Positions 333 through 4,622 are shown, counted from the stretch's first letter. The stretch: DNA of 64,000 nucleotides from Deltaproteobacteria bacterium (GCA_016182965.1 JACPFM010000071.1:3181-67180), one strand, 5' to 3'. The notes: generated by a model from the sequence alone, not told the origin. Made by a program: numbers and translations.

Positions 333-2519
333 ATGCGTTCCTTTCGCACCGCTCTCCCCCTCGTCGCCGGTGTCCTGCTCGGAGCCGCGTCTGCCGCGAC
401 CTGGATCGCCTCCGACGTGCACGAAGCCGGCGCTGTCGGCACCCGTTTCTTCGACCTCGACACGCAGGAGAAGCTGTCGGGCGGCGAGCAGAAGGGCACC
501 GCCATCACCTCGCAGGGCGACGTCGAGGCGGGCTGGGTCACCGCCAAGACCACGCTGACCAAGGGCACCTCCGTCTGGTCGGCGCTCGCGCGACCCGACG
601 GCAGCGTGCTGCTCGGCGTCGGCAACGAGGGCCGCGTCCTCAAGATCGACGCCGCCGGCAAGGAGACGATCGTCGCCGAGACCGGCGCGCTCGCCGTCAC
701 CTCGCTGGTCGAGGGACCGGGCGGGAAGATCTACGCGGGCACGATGCCCGAGGGCGAGATCTTCATCGTCGATCCGAACGCGTCGGTCGGCGTGAACCCG
801 AGCGCGCCCGCGGCGCAGAAGCCCAAGGCGTGGACCAAGCTCGCGAGCGATCACGTGTGGGCGCTCGTCTACGACAAGAAGAAGAACGAGCTCTACGCGG
901 CGACCGGCGCCGACGGGAAGATCTACCGCGTCGACGCGGCCGGAAAGTCCCAGGTCCACTTCGACGCCGACGACACGCAGATCACCAGCATCGCCATCTC
1001 GCCGAGCGGCACGCTGTACGCGGGCACCTCGTCCAAGGGGCAGCTCCTGGCGATCACGGCGCCGACCAAGTCCGAGATCGTGCAGGACTTCGACGGCCAC
1101 GAGGTGAAGGCGATCGTCTTCGGCCCCGCGGCGCCGGCGCCCGCCAAGGGCGCGAAGGCGGCGGCGACTGACGGCGGCGACACGCTCTACTGCATCGTCA
1201 ACGAGTACGCGTCGCCGCCCGAGCCGCCCCGCAAGCTCGGCATCGCGGTGAAGCCGCCCTCGACGACGTTCGACGGCGCGCGCCCCACCAAGGGCAAGGG
1301 GCAGCTGTGGAAGATCGCCGGCCTCGCGGCCGACGGCCGCGGCGGCAAGCCCGAGAAGCTCTGGGACGACAAGAGCACGCACTTCTTCTCCCTCACCGCG
1401 GAGCCCGCGCCGAAGGCCGGCGGGCCGGTCGTCTACGTGGGCACCGCGAACGACGGTCGGGTGGTCGGCGTCGACGAGACGCACGGCAGCTCGGTGCTCG
1501 CCAAGACCGAGTCGCGCTCCATCGGCGCCATCGGCATCGGCGGCGCCAAGGGCTCCTGGTTCGCCGGCGGCGATCCGGCCGTGTTCCACCGCGTCACCGG
1601 CGTCGGCGGCGCCGACGCGACGTGGACGTCCAAGGTGCTCGACGCGGGCCTCAAGGCGCGCTGGGGCAAGCTCACCTGGCGCGTCGCCAACGCGCCGGCG
1701 ACGGCGATCGAGGTGCAGACCCGCGCCGGGCAGACCTCCACGCCGGACGACTCGTGGAGCGCGTGGTCTCCTGCGATCTCCGCGCCGGGCAAGGTCACGA
1801 GCCCGCCGGGCCGCTTCGTGCAGCTGCGCGCGCGCTGGAAGGGCAACGCCGGGGCGGTGCTCCGCGGCGTGTCGCTCGCCTTCGTCACCGACAACCTGCG
1901 CGCGGTGGTCACCGAGGTGAACGTGCCGACCAAGGGCGCGCTGCCCACCGGCCTGCCTTCGTCGGGCACCGACGTCCCCAAGAAGGAGTCGACGATCAAG
2001 CTCACCTGGAAGGTCGACAACCCCGACAACGACAAGCTGGCCTACCGCCTGTGGTTCCGGCGCGAGGAGTCGACGATCTGGCGCGCGATCACCAAGGATG
2101 ACGAGCCGATCACCGCGACCGACCACACCTGGAACACCGAGTCGCTCGCCGAAGGCTGGTACCGCGTGCGCGTCGAGGCGAGCGACGAGATCGCGAACCC
2201 CCTCGGGCAGGCGCTCAAGCACGGGCTCGACTCGCCAGCGTTCATCGTCGACAACACGCCGCCGGTCATCCGCAAGCTCGCGCTGGCCAACGGCCGCATG
2301 CAGGCCGAGGTCGCCGACGGCGTCGGGCCGATCGCGCGGCTCGAGGTGCAGATCGACGGCAAGGGGCCCTGGCGCGCCGTGACCTCGACCGACGGTATCC
2401 TCGACGACGCCGTCGAGACGGTGGACGCGCCGCTCGGACTCACCGGCAGCCACCTCGTCGCGCTGCGTGCGTACGACGCGGCCGGCAACGCGGTCACCAA
2501 GGAAATCGAAGGCAAGTAG
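333..2519 (+). CDS. Secreted beta-propeller-like repeat protein with a C-terminal Ig-like domain (function unknown)
   Basis: ATG at 333 gives a signal-peptide-like N-terminus (MRSFRTALPLVAGVLLGAASAA). Recurrent motifs GKIYAGT / ELYAATGADGKIYRVD / GTLYAGT / VVYVGTANDGRVVGVD every ~45 aa are typical of propeller blades. The C-terminal FIVDNTPPVI... segment is Ig-like. Stop TAG at 2517-2519. Confidence 0.75.
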   Translation: MRSFRTALPLVAGVLLGAASAATWIASDVHEAGAVGTRFFDLDTQEKLSGGEQKGTAITSQGDVEAGWVTAKTTLTKGTSVWSALARPDGSVLLGVGNEGRVLKIDAAGKETIVAETGALAVTSLVEGPGGKIYAGTMPEGEIFIVDPNASVGVNPSAPAAQKPKAWTKLASDHVWALVYDKKKNELYAATGADGKIYRVDAAGKSQVHFDADDTQITSIAISPSGTLYAGTSSKGQLLAITAPTKSEIVQDFDGHEVKAIVFGPAAPAPAKGAKAAATDGGDTLYCIVNEYASPPEPPRKLGIAVKPPSTTFDGARPTKGKGQLWKIAGLAADGRGGKPEKLWDDKSTHFFSLTAEPAPKAGGPVVYVGTANDGRVVGVDETHGSSVLAKTESRSIGAIGIGGAKGSWFAGGDPAVFHRVTGVGGADATWTSKVLDAGLKARWGKLTWRVANAPATAIEVQTRAGQTSTPDDSWSAWSPAISAPGKVTSPPGRFVQLRARWKGNAGAVLRGVSLAFVTDNLRAVVTEVNVPTKGALPTGLPSSGTDVPKKESTIKLTWKVDNPDNDKLAYRLWFRREESTIWRAITKDDEPITATDHTWNTESLAEGWYRVRVEASDEIANPLGQALKHGLDSPAFIVDNTPPVIRKLALANGRMQAEVADGVGPIARLEVQIDGKGPWRAVTSTDGILDDAVETVDAPLGLTGSHLVALRAYDAAGNAVTKEIEGK

Positions 2520-2532
2520 CGGGAGCGCGCCG

Positions 2533-3243: not shown

Positions 3244-3245
3244 TC

Positions 3246-4622
3246 ATGGCCGACCCGCCCGACAGACCTCCCCAGAGATCGGACGATCTGCTCGGGAGGC
3301 TTCGCGCAGAGCTCGGGGGAACGCCGGCCGCGACGCCGAGGGGCAGGGTGCGGGCGCTGACCGGCCTCGCGATTCGCGCGGCGCTGCCGGGCGCGCGCGT
3401 GGGCGACGTCGCGATCGTCGAACGCCCCGACCGCCGCGGCGGGCCGCTCGCGTGCGAGGTGGTCGGCTTCGGCGATCGGTCGTCCCAGGTGGGCGACGTC
3501 GCGGCCGCCGACGTGGTGCTGATGCCGCTCGGATCGCTCTCCGGCGTCGGCCCCGACGATCCGGTGCGCCTCGAGGAGGGCGCCGCGGAGGTCCGTCCGA
3601 GCGAAGGTTGGCTCGGGCGGATCGTCGACGGGCTCGGTCGACCGATCGACGGCCAAGGGCAGCTGCCGCGCGGCGAGCCCTCGGCGATCGATCGCCGGCC
3701 GCCGAGCGCGCTCGAACGGCGCGCCATCGATCGCCCGCTCGCCACCGGCGTGCGCGCGATCGACGGGCTGATCACGCTGGCCGAGGGGCAGCGCGTGGGC
3801 CTGTTCGCCGGCTCCGGCGTGGGCAAGTCGACGCTGCTCGGCGCGATCGCGCGCGGGACGAACGCCGACGCGGTGGTCGTCGCGCTGGTCGGCGAGCGCG
3901 GTCGCGAGGTCGGCGAGTTCCTCGAGCACGCGCTCGGCGCCGAGGGGCGGAAGAAGAGCGTGGTGGTCGTCGCCACCAGCGACGCGGCGGCCCTCGAGCG
4001 CCTGCGCGCCGCGCAGGTCGCCACGGCGATCGCCGAGCGCTTCCGCGACGACGGCAAGAGCGTGCTCCTCTTGGTCGACTCGATCACGCGTTTCGCCCGC
4101 GCCCAGCGCGAGATCGGCCTCGCCGCCGGCGAGCCGCCCACCCGACGCGGCTATCCGCCGAGCGCGTTCGCCATCCTCCCGCGCCTGCTCGAGCGCGCGG
4201 GCCGCGGGGCGCGCGGGAGCATCACCGCGATCTACACCGTGCTGATCGAGGGGGGCGACATGGAGGAGCCGATCGCCGACGAGGTGCGCGGCATCCTCGA
4301 CGGTCACGTGCTCCTCGATCGCGCGATCGCCACGCGCGGGCGCTACCCGGCGATCGACGTCGCGGGATCGCTCTCGCGCGTGATGGACGCGGTGGTCGAC
4401 AAGGAGCACGCGTCGTCGGCCCGCCGGGTGCGCGGCATGGTCGGCACCTACGAGGCCAAGCGCGATCTGGTGGCCATCGGCGCGTACCAGAAGGGGCACG
4501 ATCCCGATCTCGACCGCGCGATCGTGAAGAACCCGCTGATCGAGGGGTTCCTCCAGCAGGATCCGGCCGAGATCAGCCCGTTCGGCGAGACCGTGGAGCG
4601 GCTGAAGAAGCTCGCGAGGTGA
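3246..4622 (+). CDS. FliI/YscN (SctN) family type III secretion / flagellar export ATPase
   Basis: Walker A GSGVGKSTLLG; Walker B SVLLLVDSITRFARAQREIGLAAGEPP; RGYPPSAF and ITAIYTVLIEGGDMEEPIADEVRGILDGH blocks are diagnostic of F1/FliI-type ATPases. ATG at 3246. Confidence 0.9.
   Translation: MADPPDRPPQRSDDLLGRLRAELGGTPAATPRGRVRALTGLAIRAALPGARVGDVAIVERPDRRGGPLACEVVGFGDRSSQVGDVAAADVVLMPLGSLSGVGPDDPVRLEEGAAEVRPSEGWLGRIVDGLGRPIDGQGQLPRGEPSAIDRRPPSALERRAIDRPLATGVRAIDGLITLAEGQRVGLFAGSGVGKSTLLGAIARGTNADAVVVALVGERGREVGEFLEHALGAEGRKKSVVVVATSDAAALERLRAAQVATAIAERFRDDGKSVLLLVDSITRFARAQREIGLAAGEPPTRRGYPPSAFAILPRLLERAGRGARGSITAIYTVLIEGGDMEEPIADEVRGILDGHVLLDRAIATRGRYPAIDVAGSLSRVMDAVVDKEHASSARRVRGMVGTYEAKRDLVAIGAYQKGHDPDLDRAIVKNPLIEGFLQQDPAEISPFGETVERLKKLAR

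What the first reader, a model, noticed from the sequence alone, without database searches (positions are those of the whole stretch)
333..4622. Orphan FliI/SctN-type ATPase, apparently coupled to a zinc-ribbon membrane protein and a large secreted beta-propeller protein
Established knowledge: FliI/SctN ATPases normally sit in flagellar or injectisome loci beside FliH/SctL, FliJ/SctO and export-gate genes. Seen here: the ATPase (3246-4622) is the last gene of a tight same-strand run, with gaps of 59, 13 and 2 nt. Its neighbours are a 728-aa signal-peptide-bearing propeller/Ig-like protein and a CxxC...CxxC zinc-ribbon protein with two TM helices and a charged coiled-coil tail. The next gene is convergent. 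No recognisable T3SS or flagellar component is visible in the 4.6 kb upstream or anywhere else in the window. Inference: the zinc-ribbon/coiled-coil membrane protein could serve as a FliH/SctL-like tether, giving a minimal non-canonical ATPase module. Alternatively this is the edge of a larger locus lying upstream of the window.
Basis: partly seen in the sequence, partly recalled or inferred. Interest (0 to 1): 0.55.

Follow-up and report, generated by a model that had tools for sequence, protein, structure and literature searches.

The report
Solitary flagellar-type ATPase with chance neighbours
The three genes are real, but they are three independent units that a recent rearrangement placed side by side; the notable part is the ATPase, which belongs to a well-conserved Polyangiales-wide group of flagellar/type III secretion (T3SS)-type ATPases that has no secretion or flagellar gene nearby in any genome examined.

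Summary
Observation confirmed. Three genes run on the + strand: a secreted beta-propeller/Ig protein (333-2519), a zinc-ribbon two-TM protein (2533-3243) and a FliI/YscN-family ATPase (3246-4622). The gaps are 59, 13 and 2 nt, and the next gene is convergent.

Interpretation partly supported.
- **The ATPase is orphan.** No flagellar or T3SS component was found in the 64 kb window, in the 10 kb upstream in an 86%-identical syntenic relative, or within about 10 kb in roughly 75 Polyangiales loci. Flagellar control loci were detected by the same search.
- **The proposed module is not conserved.** Zinc-ribbon-then-ATPase adjacency occurs only in relatives with ATPase identity of 84% or more. At 73-79% identity the S55-propeller(-zinc-ribbon) block is inverted, displaced or lacks the zinc-ribbon gene.
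- **The neighbours exist independently.** Distant zinc-ribbon homologues stand alone, and the S55-propeller pair occurs in Sorangium without either partner.
- **The zinc-ribbon protein is not FliH/SctL-like.** Its model shows a zinc ribbon, a TM hairpin and a winged helix.

The ATPases form one clade (95% bootstrap) with 62 of 65 family-invariant residues kept and dN/dS about 0.16. In most other Polyangiales the neighbour is a genuine dnaJ. The function is unknown. A solitary hexameric ATPase is most likely, and partner genes elsewhere in the genome are not excluded.

The parts
1..273 (+). 3' end of a secreted SpoIVB/S55-like serine peptidase gene. It is 639-672 aa when complete in relatives, and it is the first gene of a conserved two-gene S55-propeller unit.
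   Evidence: On L001 the gene extends at least 595 aa and matches PF05580 at 27.8 bits (cut-off 25). The L082 orthologue has a signal peptide and a GMSGSPI motif. The pair with the propeller gene is kept in L002, L004, L006, L007, L068, L082, L084 and in Sorangium (L099).
333..2519 (+). Secreted or membrane-anchored protein of 728 aa: an N-terminal hydrophobic helix, one beta-propeller and three beta-sandwich (Ig/FN3-like) domains. It is a Polyangiales-wide family of unknown function and the partner of the S55 peptidase.
   Evidence: AF2 model with pLDDT 84.9. Foldseek matches include the periplasmic sensor domains of the Bacteroides hybrid two-component-system proteins BT4663 and BT4673, DDB1 and propeller lactonases. 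516 homologues were found, including Sorangium, Chondromyces and Polyangium at 43-48% identity. dN/dS is 0.21-0.34.
2533..3243 (+). Membrane protein of 236 aa. It has a cytoplasmic CxxC...CxxC zinc ribbon, a TM hairpin, a cytoplasmic winged-helix domain, a beta-hairpin and a C-terminal helix. It belongs to a Polyangiales-restricted family that is normally a stand-alone gene.
   Evidence: 134 homologues, none with a Pfam domain. C2, C5, C20 and C23 are conserved. AF2 model with pLDDT 89.5. The best local fold matches are MarR/PCI winged helices. There is no similarity to FliH or YscL. Distant members stand alone.
3246..4622 (+). Solitary FliI/YscN-family ATPase of 458 aa with the catalytic core intact. 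It belongs to a monophyletic Polyangiales clade.
   Evidence: TIGR01026 at 529 bits (cut-off 379.5), but below the SctN and FliI equivalog cut-offs. Walker A GSGVGKS at 189, GERGRE at 216, Walker B LLVDS at 275. 62 of 65 reference-invariant columns are kept. The clade has 95% bootstrap support. dN/dS is 0.16-0.17 against the closest relatives. No T3SS or flagellar neighbour was found in about 75 loci.
4633..5394 (-). Convergent neighbour that bounds the run: a 253-aa protein with a weak, sub-threshold N-terminal zinc-ribbon match and a bacterial PH (bPH_2) domain. It is not part of any ATPase system.
   Evidence: PF03703 with E = 1.8e-09; PF13240 is weak. It stays in the same neighbourhood, but on the other side of the ATPase, in L084.

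Best explanation
The run at 333-4622 is not a dedicated machine. It is a recent juxtaposition of three units that exist independently across Polyangiales:
1. A secreted S55-peptidase plus propeller/Ig pair.
2. A stand-alone zinc-ribbon/TM-hairpin/winged-helix membrane protein.
3. A solitary FliI/YscN-type ATPase.

Local inversions in this lineage brought them onto one strand. As a result, the ATPase here is probably co-transcribed with the zinc-ribbon gene and translationally coupled to it. That arrangement is derived.

The ATPase is the significant part. It is one of a slowly evolving, order-wide clade of T3SS-family ATPases with no FliH/SctL, FliJ/SctO, export-gate or ring gene nearby. In most other Polyangiales it sits beside the dnaJ operon.

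Most likely mechanism (inferred, not shown): it assembles into the usual homo-hexameric ring, hydrolyses ATP and acts on protein substrates without the stator and stalk found next to it in canonical loci. It would be a retained remnant of an ancestral flagellar/T3SS export apparatus, kept for a role of its own. What it acts on is unknown.
For: **Shown: gene structure and family**
- Coordinates, gaps and family assignments.

**Shown: synteny breaks down with distance**
- The same-strand run occurs only at ATPase identity of 84% or more.
- The block is inverted at 73-74% identity and displaced without the zinc-ribbon gene at 79%.
- Zinc-ribbon homologues stand alone elsewhere.
- The S55-propeller pair stands alone in Sorangium.

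**Shown: no T3SS or flagellar hit near any Polyangiales copy**
- tblastn with 30 Ysc/Fli/Flh queries plus 7 further queries (FliH, FliJ and SctO-type proteins and one uncharacterised neighbour ORF) over 1.44 Mb (the window plus 89 loci) found nothing in Polyangiales DNA.
- All six non-myxobacterial control loci showed combinations of FliE, FliF, FliG, FliH, FliM, FliN, FliP, FlhA and FlhB.
- Precomputed Pfam annotation of L082, L084 and L086-L088 shows none either.

**Shown: the ATPase is functional and conserved**
- The ATPases are monophyletic, with 95% bootstrap support and short branches.
- 62 of 65 invariant FliI/SctN columns are kept, and there are no clade-specific substitutions.
- dN/dS is 0.16-0.34.

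**Shown: dnaJ is the commonest neighbour**
- dnaJ lies adjacent in 40 of 76 loci and within 7 kb in 12 more.
- It is a genuine DnaJ: TIGR02349 scores 387 bits against a cut-off of 377.

**Literature**
- The Myxococcales T3SS is described only in Cystobacterineae (PMC3459982).
- Only Myxococcaceae bins carried at least 50% of T3SS homologues (PMC11821767).
Against: - Whole Polyangiales genomes could not be scanned, so export-gate, FliH or FliJ genes elsewhere in the genome are not excluded. Scattered arrangements are known, for example in Chlamydia (PMC3459982).
- The complete retention of family-invariant residues, including the C-terminal domain, is what would be expected if the usual partners still exist.
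- tblastn is insensitive for short, divergent coiled-coil proteins such as FliJ/SctO.
- In the window's own sub-clade the 2-nt (or overlapping) junction between the zinc-ribbon gene and the ATPase does imply co-expression. A lineage-specific functional link cannot be ruled out.
- Hexamer formation and activity are inferred from sequence only.
Confidence: 0.62

Rival explanations
1. The ATPase is the cytoplasmic motor of a T3SS-like or flagellar-type export gate whose other genes are scattered elsewhere in Polyangiales genomes. It would therefore work in the canonical way.
For: All 62 of 65 invariant FliI/SctN positions and the T3SS_ATPase_C domain are retained, with no clade-specific changes. 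Purifying selection is strong. Scattered T3SS loci are documented in Chlamydiales (PMC3459982). The best-scoring relative outside the clade (P0362, locus L100, 57% identity, 30% GC) has FliH immediately upstream but no other flagellar gene within 10 kb, which shows that such genes can be dispersed.
Against: No component was found within about 10 kb in roughly 75 loci or in 59 kb downstream in the window. Even FliH, which sits directly upstream of the ATPase in five of the six flagellar control loci, is absent. Abby and Rocha found the Myxococcales T3SS only in Cystobacterineae. Polyangiales bins did not reach 50% of the M. xanthus T3SS homologues.
Confidence: 0.2
2. One reading: the zinc-ribbon membrane protein tethers the ATPase to the membrane like FliH/SctL. 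Together with the secreted propeller protein it would form a minimal non-canonical export module.
For: The gaps are 13 nt and 2 nt in the window. The stop and start overlap in L082/L083. The zinc ribbon, winged helix and C-terminal helix are all cytoplasmic in the model, so contact with a cytoplasmic ATPase is physically possible. The zinc-ribbon gene occupies the position that fliH holds in canonical loci.
Against: Adjacency is confined to relatives with ATPase identity of 84% or more. The block is inverted or lacks the zinc-ribbon gene in the next relatives. Zinc-ribbon homologues elsewhere are solitary. Most genomes with the ATPase have DnaJ next to it, not the zinc-ribbon gene. There is no profile or fold similarity to FliH/SctL. 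The propeller protein has a signal-peptide-like N-terminus, consistent with Sec export, so no special ATPase would be needed (the export route is inferred).
Confidence: 0.07
3. The ATPase has been exapted as a protein unfoldase or disaggregase that works with the DnaJ/Hsp70 system. DnaJ would act as its substrate adaptor in place of FliH.
For: A genuine dnaJ lies immediately upstream on the same strand in 28 loci, with gaps of -1 to +67 nt in the loci where both ends could be placed. It is convergently adjacent in 12 loci and within 7 kb in 12 more. An Hsp70-like gene lies nearby in Labilithrix. The low-GC relative L100 has grpE-dnaK 5 kb away. T3SS ATPases are known to release chaperones and unfold substrates (my own knowledge: Akeda and Galan 2005).
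Against: In the convergent arrangement the two genes cannot be co-transcribed, and only the ATPase is inverted relative to a conserved [methyltransferase-like/coiled-coil]-dnaJ unit. That pattern looks like positional inertia. The window's own clade and the basal members L061 and L064 have no dnaJ nearby. There are no clade-specific residue changes that would signal a new partner.
Confidence: 0.1
4. The ATPase is a decaying relic with no function.
For: It lacks all usual partners locally.
Against: The reading frame is intact in about 80 loci. dN/dS is about 0.16. 136 columns are invariant within the clade. Branches are shorter than in the FliI and SctN clades.
Confidence: 0.01

Closest known systems
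Flagellar export ATPase FliI (E. coli/Salmonella; PDB 2dpy, 5b0o)
   Same: Same family and domain order: N-terminal beta-barrel, RecA-like core and T3SS_ATPase_C. It is 46.5% identical to E. coli FliI. PDB FliI matches with E = 1e-106 to 1e-107. The best-scoring named relatives outside the clade in the 1.84-billion-protein library are annotated as flagellar FliI (Bacillota, Thermomicrobium). The clade groups weakly with FliI in the NJ tree (53%).
   Different: There is no fliH upstream, no fliJ downstream and no fliF, fliG, flhA or flhB nearby. It scores below all three FliI equivalog cut-offs (538 vs 619, 519 vs 630, 515 vs 587). The hosts are gliding myxobacteria that are not known to be flagellated (my own knowledge).
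Injectisome ATPase SctN (EscN, YscN, HrcN, Spa47)
   Same: It is 49% identical to YscN, Ralstonia SctN and Bradyrhizobium SctN. The best PDB matches are T3SS ATPases and EscN, with E = 1e-110 to 1e-116. TIGR02546 gives the highest single score, 545 bits.
   Different: That score is below the SctN cut-off of 605. There is no sctL, sctO or sctQRSTUV nearby, whereas these flank the gene in Yersinia, Ralstonia, Bradyrhizobium and Shigella. It does not group with SctN in the tree.
Needle-less T3SS* ('Myxo' T3SS) of Myxococcus and other Cystobacterineae
   Same: Same phylum. It is a reduced T3SS lacking several core genes (PMC3459982; PMC12075869).
   Different: That system still keeps the export apparatus, the ATPase and the inner ring in one locus, and it is reported only for Cystobacterineae. 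Here only the ATPase is found.
Dispersed or orphan flagellar-type genes in non-motile bacteria (for example Chlamydia FliI/FlhA/FliF)
   Same: A FliI-type ATPase retained in a lineage without flagella (my own knowledge).
   Different: Chlamydia also has a full T3SS with which these proteins interact. No such system is known or seen here.
FliH/SctL stator (compared with the zinc-ribbon protein)
   Same: Only the gene position immediately upstream of the ATPase, and a cytoplasmic helical tail.
   Different: There is no sequence-profile similarity (probability below 1%). The fold is different: zinc ribbon, TM hairpin and winged helix. FliH/SctL are soluble proteins, not membrane proteins (my own knowledge).

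Membership tests
FliI/YscN family ATPase (TIGR01026; PF00006 + PF18269) | Whole-protein score above the curated cut-off of the subfamily model | tested here: met
   TIGR01026 scores 529 bits against a cut-off of 379.5. PF00006 scores 280.9 bits and PF18269 82.5 bits.
FliI/YscN family ATPase | Walker A, Walker B, the catalytic Glu motif and the other family-invariant residues | tested here: met
   GSGVGKS at 189, GERGRE at 216 and LLVDS at 275. 62 of 65 columns invariant in 12 reference FliI/SctN sequences are kept in at least 90% of 25 clade members. The three exceptions are hydrophobic replacements (C to V/A/L; V to I; V to C/I).
Flagellar FliI (NCBIfam equivalogs TIGR03496/03497/03498) | Score above the equivalog cut-off | tested here: not met
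   538 vs 619, 519 vs 630 and 515 vs 587 bits.
Flagellar FliI | Genomic association with fliH, fliJ, fliF, fliG and the export-gate genes | tested here: not met
   No hit in the window or in about 75 Polyangiales loci. The six control loci were all positive.
Injectisome SctN (TIGR02546, NF005391) | Score above the equivalog cut-off | tested here: not met
   545 vs 605 and 510 vs 657 bits.
Injectisome SctN | Genomic association with sctL, sctO and sctQRSTUV/J/C | tested here: not met
   Pfam annotation of neighbours.
T3SS or flagellar system anywhere in the same genome | Presence of the export gate (SctV/FlhA, SctRST, SctU) elsewhere on the chromosome | not testable with these tools
Only indirect literature evidence is available.
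FliH/SctL (for the zinc-ribbon protein at 2533-3243) | Profile similarity to FliH/SctL, and the fold of a soluble coiled coil plus a C-terminal globular domain | tested here: not met
   No PF02108 hit. hhalign probability is 0.35% against FliH and 0.68% against YscL. The model is a membrane hairpin plus a winged helix.
Peptidase S55 (SpoIVB-like), for the upstream gene ending at 273 | Pfam score above the gathering cut-off, and a catalytic-serine motif | tested here: inconclusive
   PF05580 scores 27.8-27.9 bits against a cut-off of 25, but covers only profile positions 112-191. A GMSGSPI motif is present. TIGR02860 scores 26 against 305. The His and Asp of the catalytic triad were not mapped.
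Molecular chaperone DnaJ (neighbour of the ATPase in other Polyangiales, not in the window) | Equivalog score, and the J domain + CXXCXGXG + C-terminal domain architecture | tested here: met
   TIGR02349 scores 387 vs 377.2 and NF008035 421 vs 338. PF00226, PF00684 and PF01556 are all present.

The most novel reading that the evidence does not exclude
Polyangiales, which appear to have neither flagella nor an injectisome (not verified genome-wide here), have kept one component of the type III export machine, the FliI/SctN hexameric ATPase, as a free-standing enzyme. It would work without an export gate, FliH or FliJ, for instance as an ATP-driven protein unfoldase. Substrates would be delivered by whichever adaptor gene sits directly upstream: DnaJ in most lineages, and the zinc-ribbon/winged-helix membrane protein in the window's lineage. 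This would be the first T3SS-type ATPase with a secretion-independent cellular role.
Probability: 0.12. Interest if true: 0.72.

Novelty: new variant of a known kind. Interest (0 to 1): 0.42.

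Why it matters
T3SS/flagellar ATPases are regarded as dedicated parts of export machines, and their evolutionary link to F/V-type ATPases is a long-standing topic.

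A clade that has been kept under purifying selection across a whole bacterial order while its locus has lost every recognisable partner has two possible meanings. It may point to a dispersed, undescribed T3SS-like apparatus in Polyangiales. Or it may be a stand-alone use of this ATPase. Either outcome would be informative for the evolution of type III secretion and for myxobacterial cell biology.

The question is directly testable, because Labilithrix luteola, which carries the gene, exists as a culture-collection strain (DSM 27648).

Tried and rejected
**Look-ups that failed or gave little**
1. An exact look-up of the window's ATPase (P0001) to obtain its 78 kb contig found nothing on record. 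Only a 5.3 kb Logan contig was recovered through the propeller gene.
2. A look-up of the Chondromyces propeller homologue found nothing on record.
3. A search for a Polyangiales replicon among plasmids, so that a whole replicon could be scanned, found none. The single hit in the 60-80% identity band did not reappear at the stricter E-value limit and was not examined.

**Phylogeny**
5. Two NJ trees with bootstrap were built. The clade is well supported in the first (95%) but only weakly in the larger tree with the library representatives (34%). Its position relative to FliI and SctN is unresolved, with 53% or less in the first tree and 10% or less in the second. No claim about flagellar versus injectisome origin is made beyond 'closest scores are to FliI'.

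**Leads considered and rejected**
6. P0362/L100 was considered as an 'orphan FliH-FliI' sister lineage. It comes from a 30% GC organism, and its sister placement has only 10% support. It may simply be a flagellate with scattered genes.
7. The conserved 590-625-aa protein upstream of dnaJ was tested as a possible stator. It is methyltransferase-like with a generic coiled coil, and it shows no FliH similarity.
8. The N-terminus of the ATPase was examined for loss of the FliH-binding helix. It is shorter than in E. coli FliI but similar in length to several genuine FliI and SctN sequences, so it is not informative.
9. The PF16697 (Yop-YscD_cpl) match at window 33197-34588 is the FHA domain of a sigma-54 activator, not a T3SS part.

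**Literature and signal scans**
10. Seven literature searches found no paper on orphan FliI/SctN in Polyangiales.
11. The promoter and terminator scan of 1-5600 gave nothing above the shuffled background.

Full report
**1. What is in the sequence**

The window has 71% GC with GC3 near 0.9. The NCBI names of identical proteins place it in a 'Deltaproteobacteria bacterium' MAG, locus tag HYV09_17570, on a contig of 77,968 bp.

- A partial gene ends at 273.
- ATG 333 to TAG 2519 encodes 728 aa.
- 13 nt containing GGGAG follow, then ATG 2533 to TGA 3243 encodes 236 aa.
- 2 nt follow, then ATG 3246 to TGA 4622 encodes 458 aa.
- A convergent gene (4633-5394, - strand) stops 10 nt beyond the ATPase stop.

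**2. Identity of each gene**

*ATPase (3246-4622).*
- It matches PF00006 and PF18269. It passes the FliI/YscN subfamily model TIGR01026 (529 bits; cut-off 379.5).
- It fails every equivalog cut-off. SctN scores 545 against 605, and FliI clades 1-3 score 538, 519 and 515 against 619, 630 and 587.
- The best solved relatives are T3SS ATPases, EscN and FliI (E = 1e-105 to 1e-116). F1 beta follows at E = 1e-47.

*728-aa protein (333-2519).* The AF2 model (pLDDT 84.9) has an N-terminal hydrophobic helix, one beta-propeller and three beta-sandwich domains. It resembles periplasmic propeller/Ig sensor ectodomains.

*236-aa protein (2533-3243).*
- It has no Pfam or NCBIfam match.
- Its family has 134 members, all from Polyangiales-type sources.
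- The four zinc-ribbon cysteines, an NLAGQPSK.GG motif, two TM helices and a following domain are conserved.
- The AF2 model (pLDDT 89.5) shows that domain as a winged helix. A beta-hairpin and one C-terminal helix follow it.

*Partial upstream gene (1-273).* It is the end of a secreted SpoIVB/S55-like peptidase with a GMSGSPI motif.

**3. Is it the edge of a T3SS or flagellar locus? No.**
- The window's own DNA continues 1.5 kb upstream on L001 and holds only the S55 gene.
- In L082 (ATPase 86% identical, same gene order), the 10 kb upstream of the ATPase carry the zinc-ribbon, propeller and S55 genes. Beyond them lie a 147-aa ORF, a polysaccharide deacetylase, OMP_b-brl, an unknown gene, OmpA and an apolipoprotein-like gene.
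- Downstream in the window lie bPH_2, GCS2, glucokinase, transketolase, an S8 peptidase and a TMEM260-like gene. Further on are a hybrid kinase, a GDSL lipase, MBOAT, TauE, an FHA-sigma-54 activator, TerC, Fpg and other housekeeping genes.
- tblastn with 16 Yersinia Ysc/Lcr proteins and 14 E. coli Fli/Flh proteins was run against the window and 89 fetched loci (1.44 Mb). It gave no hit at E of 0.01 or less in any Polyangiales sequence.
- All six non-myxobacterial loci fetched with the same query (L075, L076, L078-L081) showed combinations of FliE, FliF, FliG, FliH, FliM, FliN, FliP, FlhA and FlhB.
- Seven further queries (FliH, FliJ and SctO-type proteins, plus the uncharacterised ORF downstream of the ATPase in L100) gave the same picture.

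**4. Is the three-gene run a conserved unit? No.**

tblastn of the window proteins against 80 loci that encode relatives of the ATPase, together with annotated contigs, gave this pattern:

| ATPase identity | Loci | Arrangement |
|---|---|---|
| 84-87% | L002, L082/L083 | S55, propeller, zinc-ribbon and ATPase on one strand, as in the window |
| 73-74% | L006, L007, L068 | Intact S55-propeller-zinc-ribbon block on the opposite strand, divergent from the ATPase |
| 79% | L004 | S55-propeller 3.7 kb upstream on the opposite strand, three unrelated genes between, no zinc-ribbon gene |
| 79% | L084/L085 | PmbA/TldD (-), ATPase (+), deacetylase (-), S55 (+), propeller (+), Hsp90-like gene; no zinc-ribbon gene |
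| 77% | L005 | None of the three neighbours present |
| 57-70% | about 65 loci | None of the three neighbours present |

Two further look-ups show that the neighbours exist independently:
- Zinc-ribbon homologues at 45-47% identity sit alone among unrelated metabolic genes.
- The S55-propeller pair is present in Sorangium sp. So ce363 next to alternative-complex-III genes, with no zinc-ribbon gene or ATPase within 10 kb.

GCS2, bPH_2 and glucokinase stay in the neighbourhood but change sides between the window and L084. This shows that the region is being reshuffled by local inversions.

The run is therefore a young juxtaposition of three independent units. In the window's lineage the 2-nt gap (an 11-nt overlap in L082/L083) implies that the ATPase is now co-transcribed with the zinc-ribbon gene. 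That state is derived.

**5. The zinc-ribbon protein is not FliH/SctL-like.**
- hhalign of the 50-sequence family profile against E. coli FliH and Yersinia YscL gives probabilities of 0.35% and 0.68%.
- Foldseek finds only local winged-helix matches, such as MarR, ZitR and PCI-domain proteins. These have rmsd of 2-3 A over 50-70 residues, and all E-values are 0.06 or higher.

**6. The ATPase clade**
- In an NJ tree (432 columns, 100 bootstraps, rooted on E. coli AtpA/AtpD), 25 Polyangiales ATPases form one clade. It has 95% support, and its branches are shorter than those within FliI or SctN. In the larger second tree, which adds the library representatives, support for this clade falls to 34%.
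- Its placement is unresolved. Support for grouping with FliI is 53%, and deep nodes in the larger tree have 10% support or less.
- Identity to YscN and the Ralstonia and Bradyrhizobium SctN is 49%. It is 46.5% to E. coli FliI, 38% to Shigella SpaL and 32% to AtpD.
- In the 1.84-billion-protein representative library, the two best hits (466 and 464 bits) stand apart from the rest (416 bits or less).
- One of those two (P0361) falls inside the clade. The named clusters among the next hits are annotated as flagellar FliI of Bacillota and Thermomicrobium.
- Of 65 columns invariant in 12 reference FliI/SctN sequences, 62 are kept in at least 90% of the clade.
- No column is invariant in the clade while differing from all references. 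136 columns are invariant within the clade.
- dN/dS against the closest relatives is 0.16-0.17.
- This is a functional, constrained enzyme and not a relic.

**7. What is conserved next to it elsewhere**
- In 28 loci a full-length DnaJ lies immediately upstream on the same strand. This is the Labilithrix type and includes L. luteola DSM 27648 and a 7.0 Mb chromosome. Gaps are -1 to +67 nt where both ends could be placed.
- In 12 loci DnaJ lies immediately downstream and convergent. In 12 more it is 1-7 kb away.
- 24 loci, many of them short, have none. These include the window's clade and the basal members L061 and L064.
- The DnaJ passes the DnaJ equivalog model (387 against 377 bits).
- Clustering of all neighbour ORFs shows a unit of a methyltransferase-like/coiled-coil protein followed by DnaJ. 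The ATPase abuts this unit in either orientation, so the ATPase alone was inverted.
- ABC-F and glutaredoxin genes also recur.
- This fits positional conservation beside the dnaJ operon better than obligate co-expression. A functional link to the Hsp70 system remains possible.
- The coiled-coil protein shows no FliH similarity.

**8. Literature**
- Abby and Rocha (PMC3459982) describe the reduced 'Myxo' T3SS only in Cystobacterineae.
- A survey of Myxococcota bins found at least 50% of the M. xanthus T3SS homologues only in the Myxococcaceae bin (PMC11821767).
- Seven full-text searches found nothing on a solitary FliI/SctN ATPase in Polyangiales or on a DnaJ-FliI pairing.

**9. Interpretation**

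Shown:
- The genes are real.
- The ATPase is a conserved member of the FliI/YscN family.
- It has no T3SS or flagellar neighbour in any Polyangiales locus examined.
- Its present neighbours are not conserved partners.

Inferred:
- It forms the usual hexamer and hydrolyses ATP without FliH/FliJ-type partners.
- It descends from an ancestral flagellar or T3SS apparatus.

Not resolved:
- Whether gate genes exist elsewhere in these genomes.
- Whether DnaJ, or in this lineage the zinc-ribbon protein, has any functional connection.
- What the substrate is.

**10. Verdict**

The 'coupled module with a zinc-ribbon tether' is not supported.

The finding is of moderate interest. The proposed module is not real, but the solitary ATPase clade is an undescribed variant of a well-known machine part.

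Caveats:
- Gene calls in fetched loci come from a simple GC3-based caller.
- The trees are NJ with a crude distance.
- tblastn is weak for short coiled-coil proteins.

Noticed in passing
L086:8787-11299; L087:8840-11302; L014:8454-11272; about 40 further loci: In most Polyangiales outside the window's clade, the solitary ATPase lies directly beside a genuine dnaJ. The arrangement is tandem with a stop/start overlap or a short gap, or convergent. A conserved methyltransferase-like/coiled-coil gene lies upstream of dnaJ. The window itself has no dnaJ in 64 kb.
   Followed up: yes
L100:9398-11305 (JGI 3300082323, 39 kb contig, 30% GC): The best-scoring relative outside the clade (57% identity) comes from a low-GC organism. 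It has a Pfam-confirmed FliH directly upstream of the ATPase but no other flagellar gene within 10 kb. grpE-dnaK lies 5 kb away. The organism is unknown, and the sister relationship is unsupported (10% bootstrap).
   Followed up: partly
window 1-2519; L099:7928-12106; L084:12285-16502: A secreted S55 (SpoIVB-like, GMSGSPI) peptidase and a propeller/Ig protein form a two-gene unit conserved across Polyangiales, including Sorangium, Chondromyces and Polyangium. Neither has a described function.
   Followed up: partly
window 4633-5394 (-): The convergent neighbour is a second small protein with a weak (sub-threshold) N-terminal zinc-ribbon match, here joined to a bacterial PH (bPH_2) domain. Its stop codon is only 10 nt from the ATPase stop, which leaves no room for a terminator between the two genes.
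   Followed up: partly
L084:16471-18381: In one relative an Hsp90/HATPase_c_3-like gene directly follows the S55-propeller pair, followed by two unknown genes, one with DUF3592. The window has no equivalent.
   Followed up: no
window 33197-34588 (-): A sigma-54 enhancer-binding protein has an N-terminal FHA domain that also matches PF16697 (Yop-YscD_cpl, 48 bits). This is FHA-fold similarity, not a T3SS component.
   Followed up: partly
L082:8833-9313: The propeller and zinc-ribbon genes are 480 nt apart in the 86%-identical relative, against 13 nt in the window. Even among close relatives the spacing inside the 'tight run' varies. The extra DNA was not examined.
   Followed up: no
window 13072-15927 and 15680-18082 (+): The ORFs for an S8 subtilase-like protein and a TMEM260-like protein overlap by about 250 nt in the longest-ORF calls, so the start of the second gene is probably further downstream. 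Separately, several large window ORFs (24066-24776, 28667-30544, 36817-37821, 50615-52024, 53439-54458) have no Pfam match.
   Followed up: no
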